In this document: piece after piece, positions 1,011 through 43,494 of the stretch
How the letters are laid out: every line of letters starts with the position of its first letter
Position numbering within the stretch: the first letter of the stretch is position 1
Assembly: GCA_964405665.1 (NCBI GenBank)
Contig: CAYOOT010000004.1
Location: forward strand, 8,053 to 72,052
DNA from: an uncultured Bdellovibrionales bacterium
Lineage (GTDB): Bacteria > Bdellovibrionota_C > UBA2361 > SZUA-149 > CAZDWZ01
Length of the DNA: 64,000 bases
Direction: 5' to 3'
Notes under the pieces: generated by a model
Database searches by the model: none
What the model was told of the DNA's origin: nothing
What the model saw: only the letters and a program-made list of their open reading frames with translations
Program-made: the position numbers and the translations under genes

Positions 1011-2081
1011 ATGAAAAAAATTAGCCTAATTATTCTTTTTTCTTTTATTCTAATCAGCAATGCTTTTGCCGATGATCAATTTAAAATTGGTGTGTCGCTT
1101 GCTCTGACAGGAGAAGGAGCAAACGCAGGCAATGCTTGTAAAAATGGAATTACTCTTGCTTTGGAACATCTTCCGCAAGATCTAAGAAATAAAATTTCCG
1201 TAGAATTAGAAGACGATGGGATGGTTCCAAAAAATACAGTCAGTGTTTTTAATAAATTCGTTGATCTTTCTAAAATCAACGCCATGATATCTTTTACCTC
1301 CGGTTGTTCTAATTCTGTCGCCGCTCTTGCTGAAAAAAAGCAAATTCCCTTATTAGCCATAGCAACGGATCCGAAAGTGGTACAAGATAAAAAATTCGTT
1401 TTTAATATCTGGGTTACTCCGGAAACTGAATCAAAATTACTTGCCGAAGAAATTATCAAAAGAAAATACAAAAAAATAGCAAAAATTACGGCAATCCACG
1501 ATATGTATATTGCTGTCAACAAAACTTTGGACCAAACATTAGGCGATAAAGTTCAAACTGTTCTTAATGAAGAATATTCCTCTGATGCCAAAGATTTTAA
1601 ACCTTTTTTAACAAAGCTAAAATCATACAAGGATGTGGATGCAGTTTTTGTCGGTCTTTGGTTCGGTCAGGTAGGAATCTTTGCCAAACAAGCAAAAGAA
1701 CTGGGGATCAAGCTTCCTCTTTTTGGTTACGAATTATTTGAAGATCCTAATGAGGTCAAACTTTCTCAAGGGGGTTTGCTCGGTCAGTTTTATGTAAATA
1801 CTGATGATCCGGTAGATTCTTTTATGAAAGAATATAATACCCGTTTCCCCAATGCCGCAGGTTTAGGTTCGGCAAATTGTCATGATGCCATAATTTTATT
1901 TGCTAATGCCTATAAAAAAAATAATAGTAACAGCCCCGAAGGAATAGTTGAATATTTAGAGAATTTAAGAGATTTTTCCGGAGCTTTGGGGCTTTATTCC
2001 AGCACCGGGGATCATCGCTTCAGTATACCGGCAACGATGAAAGTTGTTACAAAAAATGGCTTCGAAAAGCTAAATAAATAA
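1011..2081 (+). CDS. Periplasmic substrate-binding protein, type I PBP (Leu/Ile/Val-binding-like, Peripla_BP_6) of an ABC transporter
   Basis: ORF 957..2081. Likely true start is MKKISLIILFSFILISNAFA (signal peptide) with GAGGG upstream. GVSLALTGEGANAGNACKNG motif typical of LivK-like binding proteins. Confidence 0.6.
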   Translation: MKKISLIILFSFILISNAFADDQFKIGVSLALTGEGANAGNACKNGITLALEHLPQDLRNKISVELEDDGMVPKNTVSVFNKFVDLSKINAMISFTSGCSNSVAALAEKKQIPLLAIATDPKVVQDKKFVFNIWVTPETESKLLAEEIIKRKYKKIAKITAIHDMYIAVNKTLDQTLGDKVQTVLNEEYSSDAKDFKPFLTKLKSYKDVDAVFVGLWFGQVGIFAKQAKELGIKLPLFGYELFEDPNEVKLSQGGLLGQFYVNTDDPVDSFMKEYNTRFPNAAGLGSANCHDAIILFANAYKKNNSNSPEGIVEYLENLRDFSGALGLYSSTGDHRFSIPATMKVVTKNGFEKLNK

Positions 2082-4046: not shown

Positions 4047-4092
4047 CGGCTGGCAGAGAGAAAATACTGCTGATTAAGGCTATCTGCCAAAA

Positions 4093-4171: not shown

Positions 4172-4453
4172 TATCATGATTTCATTAGATATTTTAATTA
4201 TAAAATTAAATGAGGCACCCTGCCTTCCAGAAGGGATTATATAAAGAAAACATTCTGGGAGGCTCAATGCGTAAATACGAAAAAAATCTTAGTTCCGAAA
4301 CAACAAAAAAATTTTCCAATCTTTTAGCAAATAATTTAAACGATCAAATGGAAGCAAGCAAAATTTGTCTGCCGACAAATGCTTACAAGATCAAAGATCC
4401 TCTCAATAAATCCAAAAATATAACTATTTTCCGATTAGATATTTTTTAATCGC

Positions 4454-6350: not shown

Positions 6351-6869
6351 ATGGAAGAAAATACTGTTAATTCCGAAAGAAGTGATAAAATCAGACCTTT
6401 TGAAAGAGAATTTACGGCAAAAGAAGTTCAATCTATTTTGCGATCTTTAACAGGGAATATTGAGAAAATCGGTCTGGCCTTATTGAATTACTATGCAAGA
6501 ACTGAACTTGTCGCTGCCAGCGGCAAAGCTAAGCATCGCGGAAGAGCAAAATATAACTATCCGGATATTGTGCTTCTTTGCTGGTTATTTAGAATGAAAA
6601 AAGAAGGATTGCCGGTTAATCGTTTTCGTCGGGGTATCGATTATTTGAGAAAGCGGATGCCGAAGCTCTATGAAAATCCCAAAGACATGATTCTTTTAAC
6701 TGATGGTAAAAATCTTTTCTTAAAACACCGCATTGAAGATAAAGATGATATCGCCGAAGCTTTAACAGGTTCAAGAGCCGGACAATATGTTTGGGCTTAT
6801 TCTATTGGTACTTTGATTGAAGAAGTAGATCGAGTGATCGAAAATCACAATCGCCGATTGGTTGCGTAA
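6351..6869 (+). CDS. Hypothetical protein (172 aa)
   Basis: ORF only; basic protein with no recognisable motifs. Its stop codon TAA lies inside the terminus of the MITE at 6868. Confidence 0.35.
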   Translation: MEENTVNSERSDKIRPFEREFTAKEVQSILRSLTGNIEKIGLALLNYYARTELVAASGKAKHRGRAKYNYPDIVLLCWLFRMKKEGLPVNRFRRGIDYLRKRMPKLYENPKDMILLTDGKNLFLKHRIEDKDDIAEALTGSRAGQYVWAYSIGTLIEEVDRVIENHNRRLVA

Positions 6870-6944
6870 TTCTCCCCTTTTTCCCACGCTGCAGATATTC
6901 TAGTACTATTTATAGTTTGATGTGGGAAAAAGGGGAGAATAATT
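6868..6944. repeat. Palindromic MITE-like element, family B (TAATTCTCCCCTTTTTCGCAC ... GTGCGAAAAAGGGGAGAATTA), copy 1 (inverted relative to copies 2 and 3)
   Basis: ~77 bp with ~20-bp terminal inverted repeats. Internal sequence is the reverse complement of the copies at 17561-17636 and 39294-39372. Confidence 0.75.
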
Positions 6945-12800: not shown

Positions 12801-15519
12801 TGAAGATTTGGCTTCATTTCATAAAGGCGTTTTAATGGAGCATTTGGCTATCAGCAGAAAGGGATCCCGCTTAGTCGAGGATTTTTCTGCAGTAGAAAAA
12901 CAATGCCAAAATGTCAAAGAAAATGTTTTAAAACTTGACGCCGCATTAAGAGCCGGAGAATTTCAACAAAAACCTGATAGCGAAGACTGCACTTATTGTA
13001 AATTTAAAAATATTTGTCAAAGAAATGAAACCTTAATTAAGATTAAAAGCAATCATCAAGAAATTAAAAAAGAACAGCGTATTTTCGAAAAAAGCGTTCT
13101 TGAATTTTTAGAGCATGAAAAAAACAATAAGGAACTTATCGCCTTGTCCGCTGAACAAGAAGCGGCCTGTGATATCAATCATAATATTGCTCTGATTGCC
13201 GCTGCCGGTTCCGGGAAAACAACCGTTCTGATCAGAAGAATCATTAAATTGATTTTGGCAGGAGAAAGTATTCTCTCAATTGTTGCAATTACCTATACAG
13301 AAAAAGCTGCAGAAGAAATCAAGCAACGACTGAGTTCGGCAATAAATACAATATTAGAATATAATTCCCTGGCGGGCCAACAAATTACTAACAGTGAAAG
13401 AGAGTTTTTAATTTCAGCAAAAAGTTTGCTGCCTTTAGCTCCGATTGGCACAATTCATTCTTTTGCCGGAATCCTTTTGGGACTTGATCCTTTGATCGCC
13501 AAAAGTCCATTTTCTTTTAAAATTGTTACTGGAGAAGAAAGAAAGAAAATTGCCCAAGCGGCCATTGAAAAAGTTCTTCAAAAAAATCCTAAAAATTTGT
13601 TAATTAAGTTATTAAACTTCGGCCTCTCCTGGAGAAATATCGAATCAGAGCTTGCTCATTTAATGCTTTTACCACGGGATTTATTTGCACTAAATAGAAC
13701 TTACAAGGATCCTCTAATATTAAAAAATATTTTAGAAAAACTGAGTACTGAAACTGAAAACCCGGAACTTAATAAACAAGGGCTGGAAATTGCAGAATGC
13801 TTTTGCGAGCTTGCAGAGTATACTTATCAAAAATACCTGGAGTTAAAGAAGGAAGAAGCTGTGCTGGATTTTGATGATTTGATAATTTCAGCAAAAGAAT
13901 GTTTAAGTAATAATAGTTCAAAACGAATTGCTTTACTTAAAGAAAGAAGCACGAAATTATTTCGACATTTCTTAGTTGATGAGTTTCAAGATACTGATTC
14001 TTATCAATGGGAAATTATTAAAAATATCGCTTCAGAAATTTTCTCTCAGAAAAAAACAAAACCCAAGGAAAATTTAAGGCAAACCATTTTAATTGTCGGC
14101 GATCCTCAACAGGCAATTTATGGATTTAGAGGAGGAGATTCCAGTATTTTTCAACAAGCAATTTCCGAGTTTAAATCAGTAGGCGGTAAATTGCTTTTTC
14201 TGAGAAATAATTATCGTTCGGAAGAAAACCTGATTAATTTTTACAATTCTTACTTTAGTGAGCTGTTTTCCTGCGATTTTTTTGAAGATGCTAGTTCTCG
14301 GGTCAGCACAGCCACTTCTTATGAAGAAATGTATACTTCGCAAAAAAGCGCCGATACTCAAATTAACAATGTCTCATTTCTTTTAAAAGATCCTGAAATG
14401 AATATTGACGAAGCCGCGTATCTTGCTAGTTTTTTAAAAAAATATCTTGCAGAAAACCCTGCTACAGAAAATATTGCTATTCTTTGTCGAAAAAATGATC
14501 ATCTGGAAAAGATTGCCAGTCAATTGGATTTACAAAATATTGATTATAATATCACCCAAAGTAATCGCACTCTGGAATTAAATGAAATTAAGCAATTAGA
14601 AAATTTGCTTAAGTATTTATATAATCCCCAAGATAGTATTGCCTTAGTCGGTCTTTTGCGTTCAACAATTTTTGGTTTTAGCGATCAAGACTTGTTCTTA
14701 TTTTATCAAGAACTGCAGGATTCTTGGGAAATTAAAGAAGAATATCTGAAAACGGCAATATTTCTTAATGCAGCCCAAAAACTGGCTCATTGGAAAAATC
14801 TTAACAAATATCTTAGCGCGTCCGATCTTTTAAAACATATTATCCAAGAACAAAATCTGGAAGATGTTTATCTACAAGCCAATGAAACCGCTGCTTATAA
14901 AAATATCACAATGTTTATCGATACACTTTCTCGTGAAGGAAAAAATGCTCTAGTTGGACCCGCCGTTAGCGATGTCTTAAGTTGGTTAGAATTAAAAAGC
15001 AGTAGTAATTTTCAACTTTTTGTCAATAAAGAAAATCAGAAAATTTCCTTAATGACAATTCACAATGCCAAAGGTTTAGAATTTGATTTAGTAATTCTTG
15101 CCTATATGAATTATCGTTTGCCACCGGAACATGATTTTGTAATTGGTGAATACGCAACAAACAAATTGTTGGGAATAAAAGTTGAAGATGATGAGGATAG
15201 TTTTAGCAGAGCAAAAACTCCTCTACAAAATCTGATTGAGCAATCTTCAACAGCCTTAATTTGTGCTGAAGAAAGACGTTTGTTTTATGTCGCTTGCACC
15301 AGAGCAAAGAAAAGTTTACTTTTCTCTTTTGATCAAAGGAAAGGATTTTTAGGTAATCAAAAAAAGGTAAAGGCACTTTCGCTAAGTAATCGAAAAACAA
15401 ATGCTTTTTTGAAATCCAACCCCTACTATTGGTTTGAACAGCTTCTAGACTATGAAAATCCCTCCTTTACCTTAGCTAACCCCTTGAAAAAACTTAATTT
15501 ACCTGTCATCGAATTATAA
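9874..15519 (+). CDS. Single-chain AddB::AddA-like helicase-nuclease (N-terminal AddB-like inactivated-helicase + RecB-family nuclease with 4-Cys Fe-S site; C-terminal UvrD/AddA-like SF1 helicase without nuclease domain), 1881 aa
   Basis: N-terminal half: IIVDEAS, nuclease motifs DRIDR and IWDYKTG, Cys pattern DCPQKFFFSC ... CTYCKFKNIC (C-x2-C-x5-C as in AddB). C-terminal half: UvrD motifs AAAGSGKTT (I), FLVDEFQDTD (II), IVGDPQQAIYGFRGGD (III), NYRS (IV), TIHNAKGLEFD (V), RRLFYVACTRAK (VI). Continuous ORF across the junction. Start is TTG/GTG-type and uncertain. Confidence 0.6.
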   Translation: MVDIQNIKEKFVWILSETKLRAFEVELFLKKNNKDAEWRSLTVLDGLKNIASSLNQETRTNKPQQAELINSLILEEILNNSEFPELKEELSLVFEESNPNLKLKNLNYLLTAFRNFSNALRIQQNVDSVIKEIIDESGNTLEKKQKIAELIQLSNNLNFKLKERKITDDITSLDNLLLDLNTSKKTNLKLPELIIVDEASSYSKLELEILSQISKYCKIELLIKEPFLQIAELKQKFSFKELLNSLPPSKKHFCSLIYNINRYKNQLSFKEVKNHNQNAEKLIAYLFDSQPLENKDYKFKLPLAIWKNKTPREEVTRLAKSLSNILKNNLAKPEELHLICLDLDEYQPLFEEIFTEYQIPFVVPRGKRLVETTLGNFYLSYLSWFFKPTLLSLEKLCREPLFKIKDFDQPAIFNFISLCKNLGCDNNIFLEDIWENYFLSSFTKKGDSQSLATINWIKSELTENSELLRITGKDFFRKIFRKLNRFRCKFKKGLLAQNQVLKERAFLAATAQKTKILLKELSENTYFESSDFNKLGIEKSVFSENLILEKLKSEFLPLVYEEEKIIVSEMLDSRGLSGKLNIVLAPSFENFPAKNLKQQFSNEYDELSYKIQETSGNNSSIYESYSLIANLISNSRELVFSFSSLSKNKETKPADFLFLLAKQIKENKNLNSPEILKDYSVEFPKKFNNNPDQQKSIEQLLSKQTNYFTAYDSFIGAESSSEKIVKQLNKRFLRSSAEPEDQIAHYSVSSLETFADCPQKFFFSCLLGLEESIEPAKILAIETGNVVHTCLKKIFSLDSYKTITAENFGPACKDLLEIAEREFENNPYDWNLNYKWRYAKNLIIQGLDQDSETSKRGYLKAALFYNKQLIKSIPDQLEWNFGKDSESPALKIIEDQRELRVLGKIDRIDRTDRNKNSEVAAIWDYKTGAITPYNKVEKGKSLQIPLYALAVKQNIAPYTLPKRGAIFSLKQTNRNDEDLASFHKGVLMEHLAISRKGSRLVEDFSAVEKQCQNVKENVLKLDAALRAGEFQQKPDSEDCTYCKFKNICQRNETLIKIKSNHQEIKKEQRIFEKSVLEFLEHEKNNKELIALSAEQEAACDINHNIALIAAAGSGKTTVLIRRIIKLILAGESILSIVAITYTEKAAEEIKQRLSSAINTILEYNSLAGQQITNSEREFLISAKSLLPLAPIGTIHSFAGILLGLDPLIAKSPFSFKIVTGEERKKIAQAAIEKVLQKNPKNLLIKLLNFGLSWRNIESELAHLMLLPRDLFALNRTYKDPLILKNILEKLSTETENPELNKQGLEIAECFCELAEYTYQKYLELKKEEAVLDFDDLIISAKECLSNNSSKRIALLKERSTKLFRHFLVDEFQDTDSYQWEIIKNIASEIFSQKKTKPKENLRQTILIVGDPQQAIYGFRGGDSSIFQQAISEFKSVGGKLLFLRNNYRSEENLINFYNSYFSELFSCDFFEDASSRVSTATSYEEMYTSQKSADTQINNVSFLLKDPEMNIDEAAYLASFLKKYLAENPATENIAILCRKNDHLEKIASQLDLQNIDYNITQSNRTLELNEIKQLENLLKYLYNPQDSIALVGLLRSTIFGFSDQDLFLFYQELQDSWEIKEEYLKTAIFLNAAQKLAHWKNLNKYLSASDLLKHIIQEQNLEDVYLQANETAAYKNITMFIDTLSREGKNALVGPAVSDVLSWLELKSSSNFQLFVNKENQKISLMTIHNAKGLEFDLVILAYMNYRLPPEHDFVIGEYATNKLLGIKVEDDEDSFSRAKTPLQNLIEQSSTALICAEERRLFYVACTRAKKSLLFSFDQRKGFLGNQKKVKALSLSNRKTNAFLKSNPYYWFEQLLDYENPSFTLANPLKKLNLPVIEL

Positions 15520-15604
15520 AGGTATCTTTTTTATTTTTTATCACCATAACAGAAGTAGAATGTAATCTGAATGGGATTATTATTTATAGATTATGGAGAA
15601 CACT

Positions 15605-15982
15605 ATGTTTACAAAAATTAAAAAAATATACAGTTCAGTTTGCTTAAAAAGTTTGGAATTAGTCCATGCACACTCTAGCTTATTAATGTTTTTAATAGGT
15701 GTTGGATTTTTGAATGCTGGAATGAATGAATTAGCTCATGCTCAGGTTCCCACTGGGGCAACTGGACCACTGATCGCCAGTGCCAGAGCAACACTAGCAT
15801 GTGGTTTCATACTTTCCTATCTGGAAGGCGGGTTTGGTGCATTGCTTGCCGCCGGTGCAGGAATTGGAGCAGTAGTCGCTTCCGCTCTTGGTGGGTTTAA
15901 AGCAGCATGGTGTTTAGTTGTAGTTTCTGTCGGAGCTTTTATTCTAAGATCATACATCACTTTATTTAATGGAGTATGTTAA
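15605..15982 (+). CDS. VirB2/TrbC-like T-pilin paralogue 1 (small 2-TM secreted membrane protein)
   Basis: ORF 15593..15982; ATG at 15605 preferred (GGAG 6 nt upstream). Signal peptide ending AHA|Q, Gly-rich start, conserved Cys then GGFGALL...SALGGF...AWCLVVVSVGAFIL, C-terminal Cys. Pattern parallels Agrobacterium VirB2 (ASA|QSAGGG...ICTFILGPFG...). Confidence 0.5.
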   Translation: MFTKIKKIYSSVCLKSLELVHAHSSLLMFLIGVGFLNAGMNELAHAQVPTGATGPLIASARATLACGFILSYLEGGFGALLAAGAGIGAVVASALGGFKAAWCLVVVSVGAFILRSYITLFNGVC

Positions 15983-15995
15983 TAAAGGTTTGACC

Positions 15996-16340
15996 ATGTC
16001 AATTAAATCAAAATGGCTTCATAATTTTTTATTTTTTGTTACCGTTTTAATCTTATTAATCGTATCGCAAGAATTTGCTTTGGCTCAAGCTGCCGGTGGC
16101 GGTGGCACAGAAGGCTATGATGATAGTAAATTTGGCGTAGCCTGTATTAGTGCTCTTAATTATCTGCAAGGAGGCTTTGGAGCATTGCTTTCAGCAATAG
16201 CAGGCTTTGCTGCAGTAATCGCTTCCGCAATGGGAGGATTTAGAATGGCTTGGGGCCTCCTTATCGTATCTATCGGATCGTTTATCCTGCAAGAATATAT
16301 GGAAATTTGGTTTGGAACATCAGCTTGTGTAGGTAGTTAA
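15996..16340 (+). CDS. VirB2/TrbC-like T-pilin paralogue 2
   Basis: ORF 15969..16340; start MSIKSKW at 15996 preferred (AAAGG upstream). Signal ALA|QAAGGGGTEG; core ACISALNYLQGGFGALLSAIAGFAAVIASAMGGF; C-terminal Cys. Confidence 0.5.
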   Translation: MSIKSKWLHNFLFFVTVLILLIVSQEFALAQAAGGGGTEGYDDSKFGVACISALNYLQGGFGALLSAIAGFAAVIASAMGGFRMAWGLLIVSIGSFILQEYMEIWFGTSACVGS

Positions 16341-16702
16341 TGAATAAGATTGCTGTTAAGATAATTTTTATTGCAGAATCCCTTCAGGAATTCACAAAAA
16401 AAAATTCCGATCTAATTCTTATTTTTCTTGGCATATTAATTCTCAGTGGTGGTTTGCTTGATGTTTCTTTCGCACAAACCGGCGGAGAAGTTTTTAAAAG
16501 TGCCGCTTCCAATATCGCTTGCAAAGTAATAACCGGGAAATTTGGCGCAATGTTAACTATTTTTTCCGGAATATTTGCCATTGTTGCAGCAGCTACTGGT
16601 TCCTATAAAGGCGCCTGGGCCTTGCTCTTTGTTTCTATTGGAGCTTTTATTTTTAAAGAATTCGTCTCGATTTTATTCAGCGGGTCGATAGCATGTACAT
16701 AA
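16340..16702 (+). CDS. VirB2/TrbC-like T-pilin paralogue 3
   Basis: Start overlaps stop of paralogue 2 (TAATG). Signal SFA|QTGGEV; core IACKVITGKFGAMLTIFSGIFAIVAAATG; C-terminal IACT. Confidence 0.5.
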   Translation: MNKIAVKIIFIAESLQEFTKKNSDLILIFLGILILSGGLLDVSFAQTGGEVFKSAASNIACKVITGKFGAMLTIFSGIFAIVAAATGSYKGAWALLFVSIGAFIFKEFVSILFSGSIACT

Positions 16703-17196
16703 AGAAAGATAAATATTTTTTTGAAATTTTACTGTTAATGTCAATATTAAGTTTATTGCCTTCAATAGCTTATGCTCAAGAAGGAGGAGGAACTGCTGCT
16801 GCTGGATTTGATACCAGTGTAATTGATTGGGCGATTGAAGAACTATGTGGACACATCACAGGAAATCTTGGTGGCTTACTGGTAACTGTAGCAGCTTTCG
16901 GCGCAATAGTTTCAGCAGCTCTTGGTTCATTTAGAGTAACTTATAGTGCAATAATTGTTGCCGTTGGTGCTTATGCGATCAGTTCAATTGAAAGTTTGTA
17001 TTTTCCTAGCGCGGCAACTGTTTGTGCCTCAGGAGCTTCTGCCGATGTTGACGGAGGAGATGCCGGACCCGCTACAGGAGGACCAGTTGCACCCCCGAGA
17101 TTGTCTACTTCTGCTCAACAAACGGCTGTTTCAGAGAGAAATACTTTATATAAAGACAAAGTTGAAGAAAACGATCCTTTTGCAAAATTAGATTAA
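16693..17196 (+). CDS. VirB2/TrbC-like T-pilin paralogue 4 with Gly/Pro-rich C-terminal extension
   Basis: Start overlaps end of paralogue 3. Signal AYA|QEGGGTAAAG; core ELCGHITGNLGGLLVTVAAFGAIVSAALGSF; extra ~55-aa tail ASGASADVDGGDAGPATGGPVAPP... Confidence 0.45.
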   Translation: MYIKKDKYFFEILLLMSILSLLPSIAYAQEGGGTAAAGFDTSVIDWAIEELCGHITGNLGGLLVTVAAFGAIVSAALGSFRVTYSAIIVAVGAYAISSIESLYFPSAATVCASGASADVDGGDAGPATGGPVAPPRLSTSAQQTAVSERNTLYKDKVEENDPFAKLD

Positions 17197-17200
17197 ATCA

Positions 17201-17563
17201 ATGTCCAGGTATAATTTTAAATTTTTTATTGGCGCTACTCTTAGTTTATTTTCCTTTCTTTTTGTATTCCTAAATTTCGCCTTAGCTGATGCCTTTGAAG
17301 AACTGGGAGCTTATTCCAGTCAAGGCTTGGCGGGAGGAAGTGCAGGTTTTGCTGATGGTGCATTCAAAGAAGCAATTTGCGATATTGTTGGTTTAATGGG
17401 TAATGAGTTGGGGGGATTTTTAACTGCTTCAGCTTTATTAATGGCTTTGGTCTATGCCGCTGTTGGTGGCTTATCGCAAACCACAGCGGCAGTTATTGTT
17501 GCTGTTTCCGCTTTTTCTTTAACTTCGATTGTTAGTTTGTATTTCGGGAGTTTTAGTTGCTAA
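17201..17563 (+). CDS. VirB2/TrbC-like T-pilin paralogue 5 (most divergent)
   Basis: Signal-like N-terminus ending ALADA; core AICDIVGLMGNELGGFLTASALLMALVYAAVGG; C-terminal SFSC. Stop TAA is supplied by the family-B MITE terminus. Confidence 0.45.
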   Translation: MSRYNFKFFIGATLSLFSFLFVFLNFALADAFEELGAYSSQGLAGGSAGFADGAFKEAICDIVGLMGNELGGFLTASALLMALVYAAVGGLSQTTAAVIVAVSAFSLTSIVSLYFGSFSC

Positions 17564-17636
17564 TTCTCCCCTTTTTCGCACATCAAACTATAAATAGTAC
17601 TAGAATATATGCAGCGTGCGAAAAAGGGGAGAATTA
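17561..17636. repeat. Palindromic MITE-like element, family B, copy 2
   Basis: TAATTCTCCCCTTTTTCGCACATCAAACTATAAATAGTACTAGAATATATGCAGCGTGCGAAAAAGGGGAGAATTA. Its two TAA termini are the stop codons of the + strand pilin gene and the - strand SNF2 gene. Confidence 0.8.
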
Positions 17637-20105
17637 CCTCACCGCCTTAATAAACTCCTCTCTTTCTATCTCTAAAGACTCTTCCAAAATTCCTTCCATT
17701 TTTAATACTTCATTTTGAAACCTTGTCTTGCGATTCAAATTCCTGGCAATCAATTCATCAACCTTGCTCGCCTGTAAAGAAATAATTCTAACCGTTCCTG
17801 TTTGGCCAATCCTATGCAAACGATCAATTGATTGCATCCAATGCTCGGCATTCCATGTTTTATCGAGATAAATTGCAGTTTGAGCGGCGGTCAGCGTGAT
17901 TCCCACACCACCGGCAGCAGGAACAGCTACTAATATTTTTACTTCATTGGAATTTTGAAATTTTTTTATTGTTTCATCCCGTTCTTTTGTGGAAACTTCT
18001 CCGGAAAATGCCTTGGCTCCATACTTTTCGTAACGTTTTGTCAGTTCCCGAATATTTCCCAAATAATTTGTCCAGATTACTAGCTTTTCTTCTCTTTCAG
18101 AAACAATATCTTCCACTAATAAATCCAATTCTTTGAATTTTGCCGGTTCTCCTTTCCAAGTTTCATCAATCAATCTGGGGTTAGAGGCCACCTGAACGGC
18201 TCTTAAATATTCTTCCAGAATATTGTTAATTTCTCGGATAAAAGTTTTACCATTGGTAGAAGTAACCCTTAACAAAAGCTCTTTCCTGATTTCTTCGTAG
18301 CGCTTGCGTTGTTCTCCAGTTAAATCAATATCTCTGGTAATAAATATTTTCTCCGGTAAATCCACAACATCTTCTTTTTTTCTGCGCAGTAAAACCTCAT
18401 GCAGCCGAGAAATAGTTTCTTTAATCATTTGCGGCTTAAACTTTTTTACAGCAAAATCGCTATATTTTGTTCCCAGTTCCGCTACTTGTTCCAACCAACG
18501 ATAGTAACTTTTTCCAAATCTCTCTCCACCATCTAACAAATACATTTGTGACCAGATATCAGAAATATCTTTCGGCGTGGGAGTTCCACTAAGTAATACT
18601 CGGCGCTGACAAAGCGGCGCAAGCTGAGAAATAGCCTGAAAAGTCTGAGCATTGGGACTTTTTACGCGTTGTGATTCGTCAAGGCATAACAAAGTGTTTT
18701 TGGTTTGCAGTAAATCTATTATCTCCGGTAAAACATAATCCAGTCTGATTGCTTCGTAATTAATTACCAGACCATTTATTTTATAATCGCCCCAGGAAAG
18801 CTTTTTCAAAAAACTGATTTTCTCCTTTTTTTCTTGGGGCAACATCAACAGACGTAATTCTGGAAACCAATTTGCTGCTTCTCGCAACCAATTCCTGGTT
18901 AAGGAATTAGGACAAATTACCAAGAGAAAATCGCTTTGTGCTGTTTTTTGTAGGGCAACAAAAGAGCTAAGCACACTTAATGTTTTTCCTAATCCCATAT
19001 CGTCTCCCAAAAACGAAAATGGAGTTTCCAATAGCCATTTCATTGCCACTCGTTGATGAGGGTATAATCTTTGTTCTAAGCTTTGATCTGAGAAAATAGA
19101 CTGATTCAAATTGACATCTTTTAGTGCATTAAAATGCTTCGATCTCTCTAAAAGCAATTGTTGCGCTTCTCTTTCCTTGGCTGAAATTTCGGCAAAAGCT
19201 TCACCTCTTTGGCGGATCATTTCTTGCACTTTGTCACTTAACCAAAGCTTCCATTTCAAATCTTTTAGTCTTTGCACAACTTTAAACAAAGTATTTTGAT
19301 CAAACATTTTTGCAAGATTTTTTCGTTGATCAAAGGAAGAAATGTTAGGGAAAATTTCTCTTAGCTGTGTTGTCGTATAATTTTTTAAGCAAAAATATGT
19401 TTCACTGCCGCTTTCATCGAAATAGTCTAAAACTTCAATGAAGGGACAAAGTAAAGCTGCACTTAAATTATTTTCATTAATAATTGTTTCCTGGTTTAAA
19501 ATCTCCGCTCTTAATTTGGCACTGGCACTTAAAATTTTACCAGCAGTGGCTTCTACTGCAAAAAGTAAATTCAGATCTCTTAGTTTTTTTAAAAGTGCAG
19601 TTAATTCTTCCGTAGGTAGAAAATAAGATTTTTCCGTTTTGATATAATGTGCTCCCGGAATTTTTTCTAAAATTTTTCTGGCCTTAGAGCTAAAACTAGG
19701 GAGTGCCCGCAATGACGTCTGTTTGAAATCCAATCTGATTACTAAATCCAGCCTTAAATTTTTAAGATCCTCTTCAGCAACAGAAAATGGATTTTCTTTA
19801 ACTCGAGAAAGAATCTCTTCTAAATCAACTTTTTCCGATTTTAGTTCAATCGGCAGATCTTCAGCAGAAAAACTATAAACTAAATTATCCCTGCTAAATG
19901 ATTTGGAATTTTCCAAATAAGAACAATTTTTAAGCTGAACAGTCCAATGCTTTCTTTCTTTATTAAAACGGGCTGAGGGTATTTTTTTTATTTCCTGTAC
20001 TTTGTCAGGGGAATAAGAAAATTCAACTATTAACTGATCTCCAGAAAGAGACACTTGACCCAGAGGCTGATTATATGATTTCTCTTGTCTATGATTAATA
20101 CCCAT
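17634..20105 (-). CDS. SNF2/RapA-family DEAD-like helicase (uncharacterised ~330-aa N-terminal region + SNF2 ATPase + helicase-C)
   Basis: LGDDMGLGKT (Walker A), LCLDESQRVKSP (DExx box), helicase-C block ...GGVGITLTAAQTAIYLDKTWN...QSIDRLHRIGQ (motif VI). Confidence 0.8.
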   Translation of the reverse strand: MGINHRQEKSYNQPLGQVSLSGDQLIVEFSYSPDKVQEIKKIPSARFNKERKHWTVQLKNCSYLENSKSFSRDNLVYSFSAEDLPIELKSEKVDLEEILSRVKENPFSVAEEDLKNLRLDLVIRLDFKQTSLRALPSFSSKARKILEKIPGAHYIKTEKSYFLPTEELTALLKKLRDLNLLFAVEATAGKILSASAKLRAEILNQETIINENNLSAALLCPFIEVLDYFDESGSETYFCLKNYTTTQLREIFPNISSFDQRKNLAKMFDQNTLFKVVQRLKDLKWKLWLSDKVQEMIRQRGEAFAEISAKEREAQQLLLERSKHFNALKDVNLNQSIFSDQSLEQRLYPHQRVAMKWLLETPFSFLGDDMGLGKTLSVLSSFVALQKTAQSDFLLVICPNSLTRNWLREAANWFPELRLLMLPQEKKEKISFLKKLSWGDYKINGLVINYEAIRLDYVLPEIIDLLQTKNTLLCLDESQRVKSPNAQTFQAISQLAPLCQRRVLLSGTPTPKDISDIWSQMYLLDGGERFGKSYYRWLEQVAELGTKYSDFAVKKFKPQMIKETISRLHEVLLRRKKEDVVDLPEKIFITRDIDLTGEQRKRYEEIRKELLLRVTSTNGKTFIREINNILEEYLRAVQVASNPRLIDETWKGEPAKFKELDLLVEDIVSEREEKLVIWTNYLGNIRELTKRYEKYGAKAFSGEVSTKERDETIKKFQNSNEVKILVAVPAAGGVGITLTAAQTAIYLDKTWNAEHWMQSIDRLHRIGQTGTVRIISLQASKVDELIARNLNRKTRFQNEVLKMEGILEESLEIEREEFIKAVR

Positions 20106-20243: not shown

Positions 20244-21476
20244 ATGCCAAATAATGATGTTGATTATTTAATTATCGGTGCCGGTATCATTGGCTTAAGT
20301 CTGGCTAAGACTTTACGCCAAAAAGACCCCAGTTGTAAAATCGTTATCGTCGAAAAAGAACCACATGTTGCCGAACACGCTTCCGGAAGAAATAGTGGTG
20401 TTTTGCATGCCGGTTTTTATTATAGTGCCGATACTCTCAAAGCAAAACTTTCTATCGCCGGCAATAAGGCACTTCGAGATTATTGTAAAACAAGAAATCT
20501 TCCTCTTAAAGAAACTGGAAAATTAGTTGTCGCTACTTCCGAAAAAGAAGTGGAACAACTCTATGAACTGGAAAAAAGGGGGAAATCAAATGGCTCGCAG
20601 GTTGAAATTATTTCTGAAGAACAGGCTAGAAAAATTGAACCTAATATTAAAACTTGCGGCCAAGCACTCTGGTCTCCTTTAACGGCGACAGTGGATCCCA
20701 AAGCGATTTGTAATTCGCTGCACAAAGAATTGGCTGCTGATGGTGTTAAATTTCTTTTCAATCAGACCTTTCAAAAATGCCAAAACAATTTAGTAAAAAC
20801 TAGTCAAAACTATTATTGGGCAAATCACATTATTAATTGCGCCGGTCTGTATGCCGATAAAATTGCCCAAGGTTTTGGTTTTGGAACAAATTATACAATT
20901 ATTCCTTTTAAGGGTCTTTATTTAAAATATGTAAAAAATAGCACTGATATTCGAACAAATATTTATCCTGTTCCCGATTTGAAACAAACATTTCTGGGAG
21001 TACATTTTACAAAAACCGTAAATGACATAATAAAAATCGGCCCCACGGCCATTCCAGCTTTTTGGAGAGAGAACTATAATTTTCATCAAAGATTTAAATT
21101 GGATGAATTCTTAACAATTCTTTTTTACGAAGCTAAACTTTTTATCAATAATTCTTTTGGTTTTCGTTCTTTAGCTTTTGAAGAAATGAAAAAATATTCA
21201 AAAAGTTATTTGATTCGCCTCTCTTCCAAACTGGCACAAAATGTTGACCCTGATGGTTTTGGCGAATTTGCTCCACCGGGAATCAGGGCGCAATTAATCA
21301 ATAAACAAACTCTGCAATTGGTAATGGATTTTATGATCGAAGGAGACGAAAGAAGTACGCATATTCTAAATGCAATTTCTCCCGGGTTTACTTGTAGTTT
21401 GCCTTTTGCGGAGTATGTGGTGGATAATTATATTTTAGAGAGATCCGCGTCAAAGAAAGAAGTTGTTGTAATGTAG
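20244..21476 (+). CDS. FAD-dependent L-2-hydroxyglutarate oxidase/dehydrogenase family protein
   Basis: DYLIIGAGIIGLSLA dinucleotide fold; SGRNSGVLHAGFYYSADTLKAKL closely parallels E. coli LhgO (GHNSGVIHAGVYYTPGSLKAQ). Stop TAG lies in the MITE terminus GTAGGGG. Confidence 0.65.
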   Translation: MPNNDVDYLIIGAGIIGLSLAKTLRQKDPSCKIVIVEKEPHVAEHASGRNSGVLHAGFYYSADTLKAKLSIAGNKALRDYCKTRNLPLKETGKLVVATSEKEVEQLYELEKRGKSNGSQVEIISEEQARKIEPNIKTCGQALWSPLTATVDPKAICNSLHKELAADGVKFLFNQTFQKCQNNLVKTSQNYYWANHIINCAGLYADKIAQGFGFGTNYTIIPFKGLYLKYVKNSTDIRTNIYPVPDLKQTFLGVHFTKTVNDIIKIGPTAIPAFWRENYNFHQRFKLDEFLTILFYEAKLFINNSFGFRSLAFEEMKKYSKSYLIRLSSKLAQNVDPDGFGEFAPPGIRAQLINKQTLQLVMDFMIEGDERSTHILNAISPGFTCSLPFAEYVVDNYILERSASKKEVVVM

Positions 21477-21548
21477 GGGCACCCTTTATGAGTGCCCGGT
21501 TGGGCAATATATTTTGGAATTCCGGGCACTCATAAAGGGTGCCCCTAC
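21473..21548. repeat. Palindromic MITE-like element, family A, copy 2
   Basis: GTAGGGGCACCCTTTATGAGTGCCCGG ... CCGGGCACTCATAAAGGGTGCCCCTAC. The TAG within each terminus is the stop codon of a convergent flanking gene (20244..21476 + and 21545..22351 -). Confidence 0.8.
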
Positions 21549-22351
21549 ATAAAAAAATCTCTCATCTCTTTTAATTGCTGCTCAATACTTTTATTAGAAA
21601 CAAGCTGATTCAATTCATACTCAGAAACCAACCTCCGATCACAAGCTACTTCCGCTTCAACAGGATTAACTTTTATTCCCAGATTATAAGTTTCATTAAT
21701 CAAAGAAAGCAGCTGATACTTAGTAACCGCTTCTTTGGAAAAAATATGAAAAACTCCATTTTGATAAAGATTATTTTTGAAAATATTATCGATAATTTCA
21801 GCTAAAAATAAACTCGTAACTCCATTCCAAAAATGATTTACAAAGCCATTAATCTCTTTTCCCTGATTACTTCTCACCCATTCCAGTAAAGACCTTCCTT
21901 CTCCCGTTTCTTCTCCTACGATCGAAGTGCGCAAATACATACAATCATCGCATTCTCCGGCAACTTTGCTGATACTGTATAAATCAAAAGAATCAAAATA
22001 ACTTTTTTCTGAATAGGGTCCGGCATTACCTGAAAAAACTCCATCACTAGTGATATTAAAACATGGAATATTATTTTGTTTGGAATATTTCGCCAAATTT
22101 CTCGGAAAAATTGCATTGACTTGAAAAATTTCTTCCGTTGAAAAATTTGCAAATCGGGATTTAATGATACAAGCAGCATTAAGAATCAAATCTGCCTGGG
22201 ATAAATTTTGCACAGCTTTTGAAAATGGATCTTTTACGATATCAAAGTTTTCTCTACTTAGCTCGATCACTCTATATCCTTGTGCTCTAAAATAAAGAAC
22301 TGCCGCATAACCGAGCATTCCTTTGGAGCCAAAAATAAGAATTGTTTTCAT
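21545..22351 (-). CDS. RmlD-like NAD(P)H-dependent sugar-nucleotide reductase (dTDP-4-dehydrorhamnose reductase family)
   Basis: MKTILIFGSKGMLGY Rossmann start; SDGVF..YSISKVAGE resembles RmlD STDYVF..YGKTKLAGE. Confidence 0.55.
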   Translation of the reverse strand: MKTILIFGSKGMLGYAAVLYFRAQGYRVIELSRENFDIVKDPFSKAVQNLSQADLILNAACIIKSRFANFSTEEIFQVNAIFPRNLAKYSKQNNIPCFNITSDGVFSGNAGPYSEKSYFDSFDLYSISKVAGECDDCMYLRTSIVGEETGEGRSLLEWVRSNQGKEINGFVNHFWNGVTSLFLAEIIDNIFKNNLYQNGVFHIFSKEAVTKYQLLSLINETYNLGIKVNPVEAEVACDRRLVSEYELNQLVSNKSIEQQLKEMRDFFM

Positions 22352-28194: not shown

Positions 28195-28566
28195 ATGGAA
28201 AAATATAAGCTTAAGGACTTTCATAGGTGGGCAAAAAAAGAAGGGCTTTCTAATAACGATCTCCTCCGAACTTCAGAAGAAATGTCTAAAGGATTATTGG
28301 GAGATAGATTAGGAGCTTACATATTTAAGAAAAGAATTGGTATTGCAAATAAAGGAAAGCGAAGTGGATTAAGAACCATCATAGTTTATAGAGACAATGA
28401 ATTTGCTATATTTATTTATGGATATGCAAAAAACGAAAAAAGCGACCTCGAACCAAAAGAACAAGCAGCTCTTAGAATTTTTGCAAAAGAACTGATTAAA
28501 TTATCGAAGGTAGAAAGAATGAAAAAAGAACAAGAAGGAATATTAATTAAGATAGTGGAAGAATAA
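28195..28566 (+). CDS. Type II toxin, RelE/HigB-like (DUF1044-type)
   Basis: 123 aa, basic; LKDFHRWAKKEGLS...GKRSGLRTII...AIFIYGYAKNEKSDL pattern. Immediately followed (3-nt gap) by an HTH antitoxin gene. Confidence 0.5.
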   Translation: MEKYKLKDFHRWAKKEGLSNNDLLRTSEEMSKGLLGDRLGAYIFKKRIGIANKGKRSGLRTIIVYRDNEFAIFIYGYAKNEKSDLEPKEQAALRIFAKELIKLSKVERMKKEQEGILIKIVEE

Positions 28567-29346: not shown

Positions 29347-29373
29347 GTAAGCGGACTTTAGTCCGCTTATTAC
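29347..29373. terminator. Perfect palindrome AAGCGGACTTTAGTCCGCTT (repeat-family half-site) acting as a bidirectional hairpin terminator
   Basis: 9-bp stem with 2-nt loop, followed by A/T-rich sequence. Sits between convergent gene ends (29299 + and 29382 -). Same motif recurs at 41951-41978. Confidence 0.5.
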
Positions 29374-29381
29374 CAAAATCT

Positions 29382-38036: not shown

Positions 38037-39296
38037 ATGCCATATTTAAGCATAGTTGCCATAGGAAATGAATTGGTTTCGGGGACAATCCTCGATAGTA
38101 ACAGTCAATTTTTATGTGCTGAATTAACTGCACTGGGCTTTCAGATTAAAAAAGTTCTTCTAGTGGGAGACAATATCAAAGAAATCTCTGCAGCAATTAA
38201 CGGAGAACTTGCGCAGTCTCAGTTAATAATTACTACTGGAGGTCTCGGACCAACTACAGACGATTTAACCCGCCAGGCGATAGCTCAAGTTGCCAACGTT
38301 GCGCTAAAGCTTAATCAAAAGGCCAAAGAGAAATTAATTGAACTTCTTGTTAAAAGAGGAAGAATTGCCAATGAAAATAATCTGCGGCAAGTAGAATTCC
38401 CCGAAGGTGCAGAAGTTATCAATAATGAACTGGGAACTGCTGATTCTTTTATCACCAAAATAAATAATGTTCCTATTATTTCTCTTCCCGGTGTTCCCCG
38501 AGAAATGAAACATATTTTTGTAAACAAACTTAAATTTTACTTGGAAAAAAATTTTAATTTAAAGCAAAAACCAGTTTCTTTAAGTTTCAGGGTCTTTGGT
38601 ATGGCTGAAGCAACTTTAGGAGAAAAAATTGAAGGGTTTAATTTGCCTGATTATATTGAAGTAGCTTATCGCCCGAATTTTCCTGACATTATTATTACTT
38701 TAAAAAATCTGGCAACCACAGATAATCAAGAAAGAACCTCTGAACTAGAAAAAATTTACCCCAGCTTAATCAGGCATCTTGGCGAAAATTTCGTTTACTC
38801 CAGAAAAGAAAAAGATTCTCTGGCTAATGTTGTTGCTAATTTACTAATTGCCAAAAAACAAACTCTGGCACTTGCTGAATCCTGCAGTGGCGGTTTGCTT
38901 GCAGATTCTTTGATCTCCATTCCCGGTGCTTCAGAATTCTTACTTTCTTCGATAGTCTCTTACAGTAACGAGGCAAAAATAAAACTACTTGGCGTGAATC
39001 CGGAAACAATAAAAACTTGCGGTGCAGTAAGCAAGGAAACAGCTCTAGAAATGGTTAAGGGGATCAAAGCAAAATTAGCTTCTGATTTTGCTCTTTCCAT
39101 AACAGGTATTGCCGGCCCCGATGGTGCTAGTGTCGAAAAACCGATAGGAACTTTTTGGGTAGGTTTAGCCACAGCTGATTCCGCAGTTGCTTTTAAATAT
39201 TGTTACCCTCAAGAAAGAAATATTTTCCGGATAATGACTGTAGCAACTGCTCTTAATTTGCTAAGAAAACAATTATTAGGCTTAGAGTTGGAATAA
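38037..39296 (+). CDS. cinA: CinA-family competence/damage-inducible protein (MoCF-type domain + PncC-like NMN deamidase domain)
   Basis: [30 protein letters not shown]...[15 protein letters not shown]-terminal signature; C-terminal CinA domain [13 protein letters not shown]. Stop TAA lies in the MITE terminus. Confidence 0.85.
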
Positions 39297-39372
39297 TTCT
39301 CCTTTTTTTTCGCATATCACTATAAGTATTACTGGAATTTATGCAGCGTGCGAATAAGGGGAGAATTAATTA
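39294..39372. repeat. Palindromic MITE-like element, family B, copy 3
   Basis: TAATTCTCC(T)9CGCATATCACTATAAGTATTACTGGAATTTATGCAGCGTGCGAATAAGGGGAGAATTAATT. Both TAA termini serve as stop codons of convergent flanking genes (cinA + and 39366..39839 -). Confidence 0.75.
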
Positions 39373-39839
39373 TAGGCTTGGATTTTTGGCTCCACAGTTT
39401 CTTCTTCGGGGGCTTTTAATAAACTACTAAAAGAACTATTTTTCTTGATATTTCCTTTGAAATAAATTGCTCCTTTTTGTTCTGCTTCCCCTTCCGGAAC
39501 CTCTATACCCTGACTGATCATTTCATCTTCCAAAGGATGTAAAGTTTTTAGACTACAAACATGTTTACCAAAAAAACTTTCTGTCGATCGCTGAAAACCT
39601 CTACAAAAAAGAGATTGGTACCAAGTTAATTTGGGATTTTCATACCGGGTTTCCACATTGTTTGTTTCTCCGGTCATTTCATCATAACTGGAAGTATATA
39701 CTTTGGTCTCTCCTTGTGCTTCCTTTTCCCGACTACTTGCCTTAAAATACATAATCATATTCAAAGCAAATATCGCTCCCCCAATAGTCATGATAAAAAT
39801 ATGTTGGGGAGTAAGATCCGTTGCTAATTTTAACTTCAT
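39366..39839 (-). CDS. Hypothetical N-terminally anchored protein (157 aa)
   Basis: ORF with TM IFIMTIGGAIFALNMIMYF, acidic C-terminus. Confidence 0.35.
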   Translation of the reverse strand: MKLKLATDLTPQHIFIMTIGGAIFALNMIMYFKASSREKEAQGETKVYTSSYDEMTGETNNVETRYENPKLTWYQSLFCRGFQRSTESFFGKHVCSLKTLHPLEDEMISQGIEVPEGEAEQKGAIYFKGNIKKNSSFSSLLKAPEEETVEPKIQAYN

Positions 39840-43446: not shown

Positions 43447-43494
43447 TTCAGACGTTAAATGGCTGCAAAATTATCTAACGCTATTAGCGAAATC

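What the first reader, a model, noticed from the sequence alone, without database searches (positions are those of the whole stretch)
17561..17636. MITE family B (TAATTCTCCCC termini) whose inverted-repeat ends supply the stop codons of both convergent flanking genes
Three copies (6868-6944, 17561-17636, 39294-39372; copy 1 in opposite orientation) of a ~77-bp palindromic element sit exactly at gene 3' ends. Each one was read directly. In copy 2 the left TAA terminates the + strand pilin gene and the right-hand TAA (reverse strand) terminates the SNF2 gene. In copy 3 the termini stop cinA and the convergent gene 39366..39839. In copy 1 the left TAA stops ORF 6351..6869. This implies insertion into a TA/TAA target at stop codons (TA-duplicating, Tc1/IS630-like mobilisation), or capture of the element end as a new stop. 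Either way the elements would form stable stem-loops at mRNA 3' ends. This is comparable in concept to Neisseria Correia elements or Rickettsia RPEs.
Basis: seen in the sequence. Interest (0 to 1): 0.65.

Follow-up and report, generated by a model that had tools for sequence, protein, structure and literature searches.

The report
Hairpin repeat flush against gene ends
A 70-nt hairpin repeat shared by several uncultured Bdellovibrionota genomes sits on the first base after a stop codon or a tRNA 3' end, but the stop codons belong to the genes, not to the repeat, and no target-site duplication is present.

Summary
The three copies and all five stop-codon contacts are real. The conserved unit is TTCTCCCCTTTT, a covarying inner stem, a ~34-nt loop, then AAAAGGGGAGAA (69-72 nt). 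The flanking TAA/TTA triplets lie outside it.

A covariance model built only from copies in other Bdellovibrionota MAGs finds all three window copies.

All five abutted window genes end within one codon of homologues or orthologues; where a relative's DNA was read at that gene end, it has no element and its own stop codon. Other family members are flanked by TAG or by tRNA ends. Only 2 of 41 copies have matching flanks. So "ends supply the stops" and TA/TAA duplication (IS630/Tc1-like) are not supported.

The association with gene ends is real and stronger than claimed:
- 22 of 41 copies start exactly after a stop codon (12) or a tRNA/tmRNA 3' end (10).
- In a 35-copy informative subset, 17 abut exactly, against 1.2 expected under random placement in the same spacer.
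- The other side of those copies keeps 42-650+ nt of spacer.

Some copies lie inside operons (atpD-atpC, tRNA clusters), and none has a T-run. It is therefore not a classical terminator.

Best reading: a new REP/MITE-like mobile hairpin with an unexplained exact preference for gene ends.

The parts
6870..6939 (.). Copy 1 of the hairpin repeat. The 70-nt core has its loop inverted relative to copy 2. Arms are TTCTCCCCTTTTTCCCAC / GTGGGAAAAAGGGGAGAA.
   Evidence: Read. 96% match to copy 2 (I1). Covariance model R1, built without window copies, scores 57.3 bits, E 9e-17. Fold -35.7 kcal/mol. A G:C to C:G double change in the stem relative to copy 2.
6867..6869 (+). TAA stop of ORF 6351..6869 (conserved MerR-like Bdellovibrionota protein). 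It is flush with copy 1, belongs to the gene, and is not part of the repeat.
   Evidence: ORF list. Homologues end at the same alignment column, +-1 (A5). Relative L087 has its own TAA and no element.
17564..17633 (.). Copy 2, the flagged copy. The 70-nt core has an 18-bp arm TTCTCCCCTTTTTCGCAC, a 34-nt loop and the arm GTGCGAAAAAGGGGAGAA. The two flanking stop codons add 3 more base pairs.
   Evidence: Read. R1 scores 59.3 bits, E 1.8e-17. Fold -32.9 (+) and -35.7 (-) kcal/mol, z about -9.5.
17561..17563 (+). TAA stop of ORF 17201..17563, a small hydrophobic protein whose 'pilin' label is unverified. It is flush with copy 2.
   Evidence: ORF list. The orthologue in L084 is 76% identical and ends ..FSCS*, against ..FSC* here.
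17634..17636 (-). Stop codon (TAA on the minus strand) of the SNF2-family helicase gene 17634..20105. It is flush with copy 2.
   Evidence: C-termini are ..KAVR* (window)..EALR* (L086) and ..EAVKK* (L084), so the stop is at its native position.
39297..39365 (.). Copy 3. A 69-nt, older and partly decayed core. The left arm TTCTCCTTTTTT pairs with GGGG through G-U only on the + strand RNA.
   Evidence: Read. R1 scores 31.3 bits, E 1.3e-7. Fold -24.4 (+) against -17.5 (-) kcal/mol. The same element is present in the same-strain contig L001.
39294..39296 (+). TAA stop of cinA 38037..39296. It is flush with copy 3 and is the gene's own stop.
   Evidence: The empty orthologous site in L002 reads ..AAT TAA gac TTA... 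L003 carries the element with an inverted loop after the same TAA.
39366..39368 (-). Stop codon of ORF 39366..39839 (157 aa, no Pfam family). It is flush with copy 3.
   Evidence: The closest homologue P0361 (67% identity, 151 aa) aligns query residues 3-156 to its residues 5-151, so the C-terminus is native within 1 residue.

Best explanation
Family B is a previously undescribed short palindromic repeat of the REP/MITE kind. It is specific to a group of uncultured Bdellovibrionota/Oligoflexia.

Anatomy. The unit is 69-72 nt:
- an invariant 12-bp outer stem, TTCTCCCCTTTT / AAAAGGGGAGAA;
- a 6-8-bp inner stem that differs between copies but stays paired;
- a ~34-nt loop that is conserved only within lineages.

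Mobility and target (inferred from polymorphism and flank patterns). It is, or recently was, mobile. It integrates without a target-site duplication. It lands at the first base after the end of a gene product: after TAA or TAG, or after the discriminator base or encoded CCA of a tRNA or tmRNA. The TAA/TTA triplets next to the window copies are the genes' own stop codons. Where two convergent genes both touch the element, these triplets happen to lengthen the stem by 3 bp.

Enzyme (inferred, not shown). The machinery is most likely one that handles folded single-stranded hairpin DNA and leaves no duplication. The IS200/IS605-like tyrosine (HUH) transposases that move REP/REPIN and 'TIR' repeats are the closest known model.

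Role in RNA (inferred, not shown). The transcribed element gives the upstream RNA a ~20-bp 3' hairpin. Such a hairpin would be a block to 3' exonucleases or an RNase III substrate. It is not a terminator.
For: Family and structure:
- 41 copies were collected from the window, relatives, Bdellovibrionota MAGs and metagenomes.
- The covariance model built without window copies finds all three window copies.
- 98.5% of stem cells are paired. 61 double-change cells were seen against 16.8 in shuffles, and 7 inner pairs covary.
- No Rfam family matches.

The stops are native.

No duplication, and flanks vary.

Exact abutment:
- 12 copies touch a CDS stop and 10 touch a tRNA or tmRNA end.
- In the 35-copy informative subset, 17 abut exactly against 1.19 expected, Poisson 2e-14.
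- Other hairpins behind tRNAs in the same MAGs sit 7-19 nt away.

Mobility:
- Copies 1 and 2 are 96% identical.
- The cinA site shows present/absent/present across three relatives. Their CinA identities (80/72/74%) require two gains at one site or a precise loss.
- The sites are empty in L084, L087 and L039.
- Truncated older arms lie directly behind full copies.

Not a terminator:
- There is no T-run and the terminator scan does not flag the copies.
- Copies lie between atpD and atpC and inside tRNA clusters.

Literature (PMC3733652):
- REPs lie mostly <20 bp from ORF 3' ends.
- GTAG REP termini often provide TAG stops.
- Repeats flanking RAYT-like transposases share GGGGWSAS; here the end is GGGGAGAA.
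Against: - No transposase of any kind was found in the window or next to copies in other loci.
That is a weak negative.
- The element lacks the GTAG/CGTC head that defines classical REPs.
- IS200/IS605-type elements use one fixed target word. Here the abutted triplets vary (TAA, TAG, CCA, CCG, GTG), with only a weak Y-M-R bias.
- No known DNA-level mechanism recognises both stop codons and mature tRNA ends, so the targeting step is unexplained.
- Most copies were found with a pattern that required intact outer arms, so the invariance of the outer stem is partly ascertainment.
- No expression data exist.
Confidence: 0.6

Rival explanations
1. This is a Tc1/IS630-type MITE whose true ends are TAATTCTCCCC. 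It inserts into TA/TAA and duplicates it, so the element ends provide the stop codons of the flanking genes.
For: In the window lineage, 4 of 4 left flanks are TAA and 2 of 4 right flanks are TTA. In copies 2 and 3 the sequence reads TA-[A..T]-TA. One family member, L035, does end an ORF inside its arm (FSPF*).
Against: - The conserved unit excludes TAA.
- Flanks elsewhere are TAG, CCA, CCG, TCA and others.
- Identical flanks occur in only 2 of 41 copies.
- Empty sites and homologues show the stops are native.
- L003 has TAA on the left but GG TTA on the right.
- No IS630-like gene was seen.
Confidence: 0.05
2. A host-selected RNA element rather than a transposon. The hairpin is a functional 3'-end module, either a processing site for RNase III or a related enzyme, or a stability cap. 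It must directly follow the mature end of the upstream RNA. Selection, not insertion preference, keeps it flush with the gene.
For: - The outer stem is identical across MAGs of 36-50% GC, while the inner stem covaries.
- Decayed copies are rare among the extra copies found by the model.
- Copies sit exactly at tRNA ends inside tRNA clusters and between atpD and atpC, where they must be transcribed.
- Copy 3 keeps its pairing through G-U only in the cinA sense strand.
Against: - A module of this kind still has to spread to new loci by some mobile process.
- Near-identical copies occur at unrelated genes.
- Sites are empty in relatives with normal genes.
- About a third of copies sit 4-27 nt from the gene end, and 8 of 41 are not within 30 nt of any 3' end.
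- Loop orientation is random relative to the abutted gene (9:9).
- There is no excess of G-U over other mismatches.
Confidence: 0.2
3. Trivial consequence of a compact genome. Convergent genes are only 0-10 nt apart, so any tolerated insertion necessarily touches both stop codons.
For: Window convergent pairs without repeats are 2, 5 and 10 nt apart. The empty cinA site has a 3-nt spacer. Other repeat families in the window also fill convergent gaps.
Against: - 17 exactly abutting copies keep 2-2000+ nt of free spacer on the other side, 42 nt or more in all but L003.
- All 10 tRNA/tmRNA cases are exact although free spacer is available.
- The L084 orthologue of the copy-2 site has a 78-nt spacer.
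- L018 against L039 shows a simple insertion 6 nt into a 52-53-nt spacer.
Confidence: 0.05
4. Insertion guided by the ends of gene products. The element would be joined at positions defined at the RNA level, for example by reverse transcription or template switching primed from processed RNA 3' ends, followed by recombination into the gene. This would be a new kind of targeting.
For: The junction follows the functional end whatever its sequence: the discriminator in CCA-less tRNA genes, CCA where it is encoded, and TAA/TAG in coding genes. There is no constant DNA target word. One-sided replacement footprints are seen.
Against: - No reverse transcriptase or other candidate enzyme was seen.
- mRNA 3' ends are not expected at stop codons.
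- About a third of copies are a few nt off.
- The idea is purely inferential.
Confidence: 0.1

Closest known systems
REP / REPIN / BIME repeats (RAYT-associated), including the 'TIR' repeats linked to RAYT-like TIRYT transposases (Di Nocera et al. 2013, PMC3733652)
   Same: Short palindromic repeats with high copy number. The stem is kept by compensatory changes. They lie between convergent or co-directional genes, mostly within 20 bp of the upstream ORF's 3' end, with no target duplication. They occur inside operons and are thought to act as RNA hairpins. The GGGGAGAA end resembles the GGGGWSAS motif reported for TIRYT-flanking repeats.
   Different: There is no GTAG or CGTC head. The unit is one long hairpin of 70 nt with a large loop, not a 20-40-nt stem-loop or a doublet. 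No RAYT or TIRYT was found in the sampled DNA. Exact flush contact with tRNA ends is not described in the one paper read.
GTAG REPs whose termini provide TAG stop codons (same paper); family A in this window at 21472-21550 is an example
   Same: A palindromic repeat touching the stop codons of both convergent genes.
   Different: In GTAG REPs the TAG is part of the conserved repeat head (shown for family A). In family B the stop lies outside the conserved unit and is the gene's own.
Correia elements (CREE/NEMIS) of Neisseria
   Same: Miniature palindromic repeats that are co-transcribed with neighbouring genes and form long RNA hairpins. Correia hairpins are RNase III substrates (from my own knowledge).
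   Different: Correia elements are 100-155 bp with 26-bp inverted repeats, duplicate a TA target and carry promoter and IHF features. Family B has no TA duplication, is half the size and has no sequence similarity.
Integron attC sites
   Same: Imperfect palindromes of 57-141 nt placed right after the stop codon of a gene. Outer boxes are conserved, the inner part and loop vary, and they are handled as folded single strands without duplication.
   Different: There are no RYYYAAC/GTTRRRY core sites and no extrahelical bases (98.5% of cells are paired). There are no cassette arrays or integrase nearby, and the element sits next to housekeeping and tRNA genes.
Rickettsia palindromic elements (RPE) and mycobacterial MIRUs
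   Same: Small repeats tolerated in very tight contact with coding sequences.
   Different: RPEs insert in frame inside ORFs. MIRUs are direct repeats that overlap stop and start codons. Family B stays outside ORFs, with one exception (L035).

Membership tests
IS630/Tc1-mariner-derived MITE | TA target-site duplication flanking the inverted repeats | tested here: not met
   Flanks of 41 copies were examined. Identical triplets on both sides occur only in window copy 1 and L018. TA appears on both sides only where both flanks are stop codons. L003 reads TAA|..|GGTTA.
IS630/Tc1-mariner-derived MITE | Arms match the terminal inverted repeats of a resident IS630-family transposase gene | not testable with these tools
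   No transposase was found among about 50 window ORFs or 20 ORFs next to copies elsewhere. Whole genomes could not be searched.
Classical REP/REPIN (RAYT-mobilised) | Conserved GTAG (or CGTC) tetranucleotide at one end of the palindrome | tested here: not met
   The core begins TTCTCC and ends GGAGAA in all copies (A2/A3). Family A in the same window does carry GTAG.
Classical REP/REPIN (RAYT-mobilised) | Palindromic stem maintained by compensatory change; location at ORF 3' ends; no duplication | tested here: met
   Covariation. 33 of 41 copies lie within 30 nt of a 3' end. No duplication.
Classical REP/REPIN or TIRYT-associated repeats | A cognate Y1 (HUH) transposase gene flanked by the repeats | tested here: inconclusive
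   tblastn with an E. coli RAYT sequence recalled from memory found nothing in 660 kb of held DNA. Solo arms that could bracket a gene are absent. Genome-wide search was not possible.
TIRYT-associated TIR repeats | GGGGWSAS motif in the repeat (PMC3733652) | tested here: inconclusive
   The element end GGGGAGAA matches 7 of 8 positions. This is a short motif and only a lead.
Integron attC | R''/R' core sites (RYYYAAC / GTTRRRY), extrahelical bases, cassette array next to intI | tested here: not met
   No such cores are present in the consensus. Stems are 98.5% paired. Neighbours are housekeeping and tRNA genes.
Rho-independent terminator | Short G+C-rich hairpin with a small loop followed by a T-run | tested here: not met
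   The scan does not flag the copies. The loop is about 34 nt and the downstream flanks are not T-rich. Copies lie inside the atp operon and inside tRNA clusters.
Any Rfam family | Match at gathering score | tested here: not met
   Only tRNAs were reported in the window, L006, L007 and L019.
Correia element | 100-155 bp, 26-bp inverted repeats, TA duplication | tested here: not met
   Length is 69-72 nt and there is no TA duplication. Sequence similarity and Neisseria host range were not searched for separately.

The most novel reading that the evidence does not exclude
The hairpin is placed by a mechanism that senses the end of a gene product rather than a DNA word. It always starts at the first base after a stop codon, or after the last encoded base of a tRNA or tmRNA (discriminator or CCA). 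This could work through RNA 3' ends (reverse transcription or template switching), or through an unknown recombinase with structural target recognition. It would be a new class of target selection for a bacterial mobile element.
Probability: 0.12. Interest if true: 0.85.

Novelty: new variant of a known kind. Interest (0 to 1): 0.55.

Why it matters
Short palindromic repeats are common in bacteria, but how they choose their sites and what they do is still poorly understood.

This family gives an unusually sharp signal. The junction falls on the first base after the functional end of both protein genes and tRNA genes. There is no duplication and no fixed target word.

If the preference is mechanistic, it points to an unknown way of finding gene ends. 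If it is selective, it points to a 3'-end RNA module shared by mRNAs and tRNAs in a little-studied predatory phylum.

For annotation, the result shows that these hairpins should not be read as terminators or as sources of stop codons. It also warns that 'the repeat end supplies the stop' must be tested against empty orthologous sites. That claim holds for the GTAG repeat in this same window but not for family B.

Tried and rejected
Searches that found nothing or little:
- Exact-pattern scans including the loop (GCAGCGTGNGAANAAGGGGAGAA, and a laxer version) found nothing in genome or metagenome collections. Only the arm-only pattern worked.
- About a quarter of genome hits and most metagenome hits to the arm-only pattern are unrelated hairpins. 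These are a 52-nt family in Armatimonadetes and groundwater samples, plus Mesorhizobium, Lachnospira and others. They were excluded by length and stem criteria.
- The window's own contig could not be fetched. Exact-protein look-ups failed for the cinA product and for P0001 and P0121.
- The viral collection holds only one unrelated 67-nt hit.
- Two literature searches on Bdellovibrio repeats and on tRNA-flanking palindromes found nothing relevant.

Ideas tested and rejected:
- DNA-uptake-sequence-like pairs: the 11-mer never occurs singly.
- Shine-Dalgarno function of the AAGGGGAG arm: downstream starts are 34-119 nt away.
- Subfamily-specific extended ends: flanks vary within subfamilies.
- Orientation bias relative to the abutted gene: 9:9, from a hand count.

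Ideas left unresolved:
- A palindromic target or inverted flank copy: complementarity of 3 or more flank nt is enriched (7 of 40), but 3 of those 7 are convergent stop pairs.
- TGA avoidance at the junction (0 of 15) is only marginal against an 18% background.

Full report
**1. Observation.** ORF lists confirm the contacts:
- TAA 17561-17563 ends ORF 17201..17563(+).
- TTA 17634-17636 is the stop of the SNF2 gene 17634..20105(-).
- TAA 39294-39296 ends cinA.
- TTA 39366-39368 ends 39366..39839(-).
- TAA 6867-6869 ends ORF 6351..6869.

Copies 1 and 2 match at 96% over 75 nt, and copy 3 at about 80%. All fold into long stems on either strand: -33 to -36 kcal/mol, z -7 to -10, with copy 3 weaker. 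SNF2 and CinA are confirmed by Pfam. 'Pilin' is not confirmed.

**2. What the family is.** Loop-containing patterns found nothing in public collections. A pattern of the two outer arms alone found 40 genome loci, about 30 of them in Bdellovibrionota MAGs (JTS-AC222, JTS-AC261, two 'uncultured Bdellovibrionales', OTE_78). It also found 7 true members in metagenomes.

Names attached to homologues of window proteins place the window in the same phylum.

The common unit is TTCTCCCCTTTT, then a variable inner stem, then a ~34-nt loop, then AAAAGGGGAGAA. It is 70-72 nt long (69 nt in the decayed window copy 3).

On 34 non-window copies, 98.5% of stem cells pair. Seven inner pairs carry compensatory changes: 61 double-change cells against 16.8 in shuffles, with a collapse when the partner column is slid.

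A covariance model built from these 34 copies finds the three window copies at E 2e-17, 9e-17 and 1e-7, and also the L003 copy. The window elements are therefore members of this wider family. Rfam has no matching family.

**3. Are the TAA ends part of the element?** No.
- Outside the TTCTCC...GGAGAA core the flanks differ between copies: TAA, TAG, TCA, CCA, CCG, TTA and others.
- At cinA, a relative with 80% identical CinA (L002) has no element and reads AAT TAA gac TTA, with its own stop at the same codon.
- The MerR-like ORF ends at the same alignment column as eleven homologues. L087 has its own TAA and no element in 20 kb.
- SNF2 ends ..KAVR* here..EALR* in L086 and ..EAVKK* in L084.
- The small ORF ends ..FSC* here and ..FSCS* in L084.
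- The 157-aa ORF ends within one residue of its 67%-identical homologue.

The element lies against native stops. Only one family member, L035, has an ORF ending inside the arm.

For contrast, the GTAG-headed repeat at 21472-21550 in this window does contribute the TAG of both neighbouring genes. This matches the description of GTAG REPs in PMC3733652.

**4. Target duplication.** Identical flanks occur in 2 of 41 copies. TA on both sides is seen only where both flanks are stop codons. L003 has TAA on the left and GG TTA on the right. L018 compared with its empty orthologue L039 shows a plain insertion 6 nt into a 52-53-nt atpD-atpC spacer, with no gain or loss of flanking bases. A TA-duplicating IS630/Tc1 origin is not supported.

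**5. The real regularity.** Of 41 copies, 33 lie within 30 nt downstream of a gene's 3' end, and 22 start on the very next base:
- 12 copies follow a stop codon. This makes 15 junctions: TAA x12, TAG x3, TGA x0.
- 10 copies follow the 3' end of tRNA-Ser (x4), Tyr, Val, Cys, Trp or Met, or a tmRNA 3' segment. In these the element follows the discriminator base where CCA is not encoded and follows CCA where it is.

I took 35 copies for which a spacer can be defined. The 0/0 cases and three ambiguous copies were left out. Among these, 17 abut exactly. Uniform placement within the same spacer predicts 1.19 (Poisson 2e-14).

In those copies the opposite side keeps 42-650+ nt in all but L003 (2 nt). 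Genome compaction therefore does not explain the result, even though convergent genes in the window are often only 2-10 nt apart.

Other hairpins behind tRNA genes in the same MAGs start 7-19 nt away.

Loop orientation relative to the abutted gene is 9:9. The pooled flanks show only a weak Y-M-R bias at -3..-1, and the far side is most often TCA|..|TGA (hand counts).

**6. What it is not.** There is no T-run after the stem and the loop is large, so the terminator scan does not pick the copies up. Copies sit between atpD and atpC (L018), between ilv genes (L011) and inside tRNA clusters (L006, L007). Read-through must therefore occur. The 11-mer never occurs alone, which rules out an uptake-sequence-like signal.

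**7. Mobility.**
- Near-identical copies sit next to unrelated genes.
- Orthologous sites are empty in relatives.
- The cinA site is filled in the window, empty in L002 and filled with an inverted loop in L003. CinA identities are 80/72/74%, so this needs either two insertions at the same base or a precise loss.
- Three copies are followed directly by the truncated right arm of an older copy, which suggests repeated hits at the same gene end.
- The two double contacts in the window could come from two insertions followed by recombination between the copies. This step is inferred.

**8. Mechanism.**
- Shown: the anatomy, the covariation, native stops, absence of duplication, exact gene-end contact, and polymorphism among relatives.
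- Inferred: a mobile hairpin handled as folded single-stranded DNA, with REP/REPIN and the RAYT-like 'TIRYT' repeats as the closest model. The GGGGAGAA end resembles their GGGGWSAS motif.
- Inferred: an RNA role as a 3' hairpin, acting as an exonuclease block or an RNase III substrate.

No transposase was found in the window or beside copies elsewhere. A memory-based RAYT query found nothing. How one mechanism finds both stop codons and tRNA ends remains unexplained. Selection for a flush RNA module and an RNA-end-guided insertion are kept as rivals.

**9. Verdict.** The element is a new, uncatalogued variant of the REP/MITE kind. The stop-codon association is real, extends to tRNA genes, and is the interesting part.

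**10. Limits.**
- Copies were ascertained with intact outer arms.
- Gene calls are simple ORF and ARAGORN calls on 8-kb pieces.
- No whole genome, no transcript data and no enzyme were available.

Noticed in passing
window 21472-21550 (also 4090-4183, 42121-42164, 59878-59964): Family A is a GTAG-headed REP doublet (REPIN-like). At 21472-21550 the TAG of each GTAG head is the stop codon of 20244..21476(+) and of 21545..22351(-). Here the repeat really does supply the stops, as PMC3733652 describes for GTAG REPs.
   Followed up: partly
window 43486-43650 and 48716-48874: A third repeat family (AGCGAA-rich). Its 69-nt arms are 94% complementary and lie 5.2 kb apart. They bracket a truncated B3_4-domain ORF and YdbH-like, Ysc84 and phospholipase-D genes. 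This could be an invertible or composite segment.
   Followed up: no
window 29351-29392, 41955-41996, 42045-42231, 48676-48709: A fourth small repeat family built around GCGGACTTTAGTCCGC, again in intergenic 3' regions.
   Followed up: no
window 9874-15519: A single 1881-aa ORF combines a PD-(D/E)XK nuclease with a UvrD-type helicase (AddB/AddA-like). In relative L087 the same functions are two adjacent genes of 921 and 811 aa.
   Followed up: no
window 15593-17563; L084 4105-6012: A cluster of five small hydrophobic ORFs is conserved in relative L084. The only family hint is a sub-threshold TrbC/VirB2 match for 16693..17196, so the 'pilin' label is unverified.
   Followed up: partly
L032 1-176 and 5755-6230: The last 104 nt of a tmRNA gene occur twice, 5.6 kb apart. 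A further short repeat of the tmRNA end lies about 100 nt downstream, as after island integration. The contig-start copy is followed by the hairpin right after the discriminator base. The full gene keeps CCA and has no hairpin.
   Followed up: partly
L018 6985-7115; L039 1100-1165: The hairpin lies between atpD and atpC in JTS-AC222. The orthologous spacer in another Bdellovibrionales MAG is empty and has the same length (52-53 nt).
   Followed up: yes
L035 1253-1324: An M48-peptidase ORF (1310..1963, minus strand) ends 15 nt inside the hairpin arm (..FSPF*). This is the only case seen where the element supplies the C-terminus and the stop.
   Followed up: no
L084 4027-4104: At the site orthologous to window copy 2, the relative has a 78-nt spacer with a different G+C-rich hairpin (TGGAGCGGCGACC / GGTCGCCGCTCCA). 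It may be another repeat family or a terminator.
   Followed up: no
L004, L010, L031, L036, L040 and many Ga0210051-type metagenome loci: An unrelated 52-nt hairpin in Armatimonadetes CG2_30_59_28 and groundwater samples shares the outer 11-mer. It has identical flanks and is followed by AAG ATG. It appears to be part of a larger repeat in which the hairpin sequesters a Shine-Dalgarno-like sequence.
   Followed up: no
window 39366-39839 versus L002 and L003 downstream of cinA: Synteny breaks exactly at the element. The window has a 157-aa ORF of unknown family, whereas both relatives have a trypsin-like protease convergent on cinA.
   Followed up: no
window 28195-28566: A RelE-family toxin gene.
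   Followed up: no
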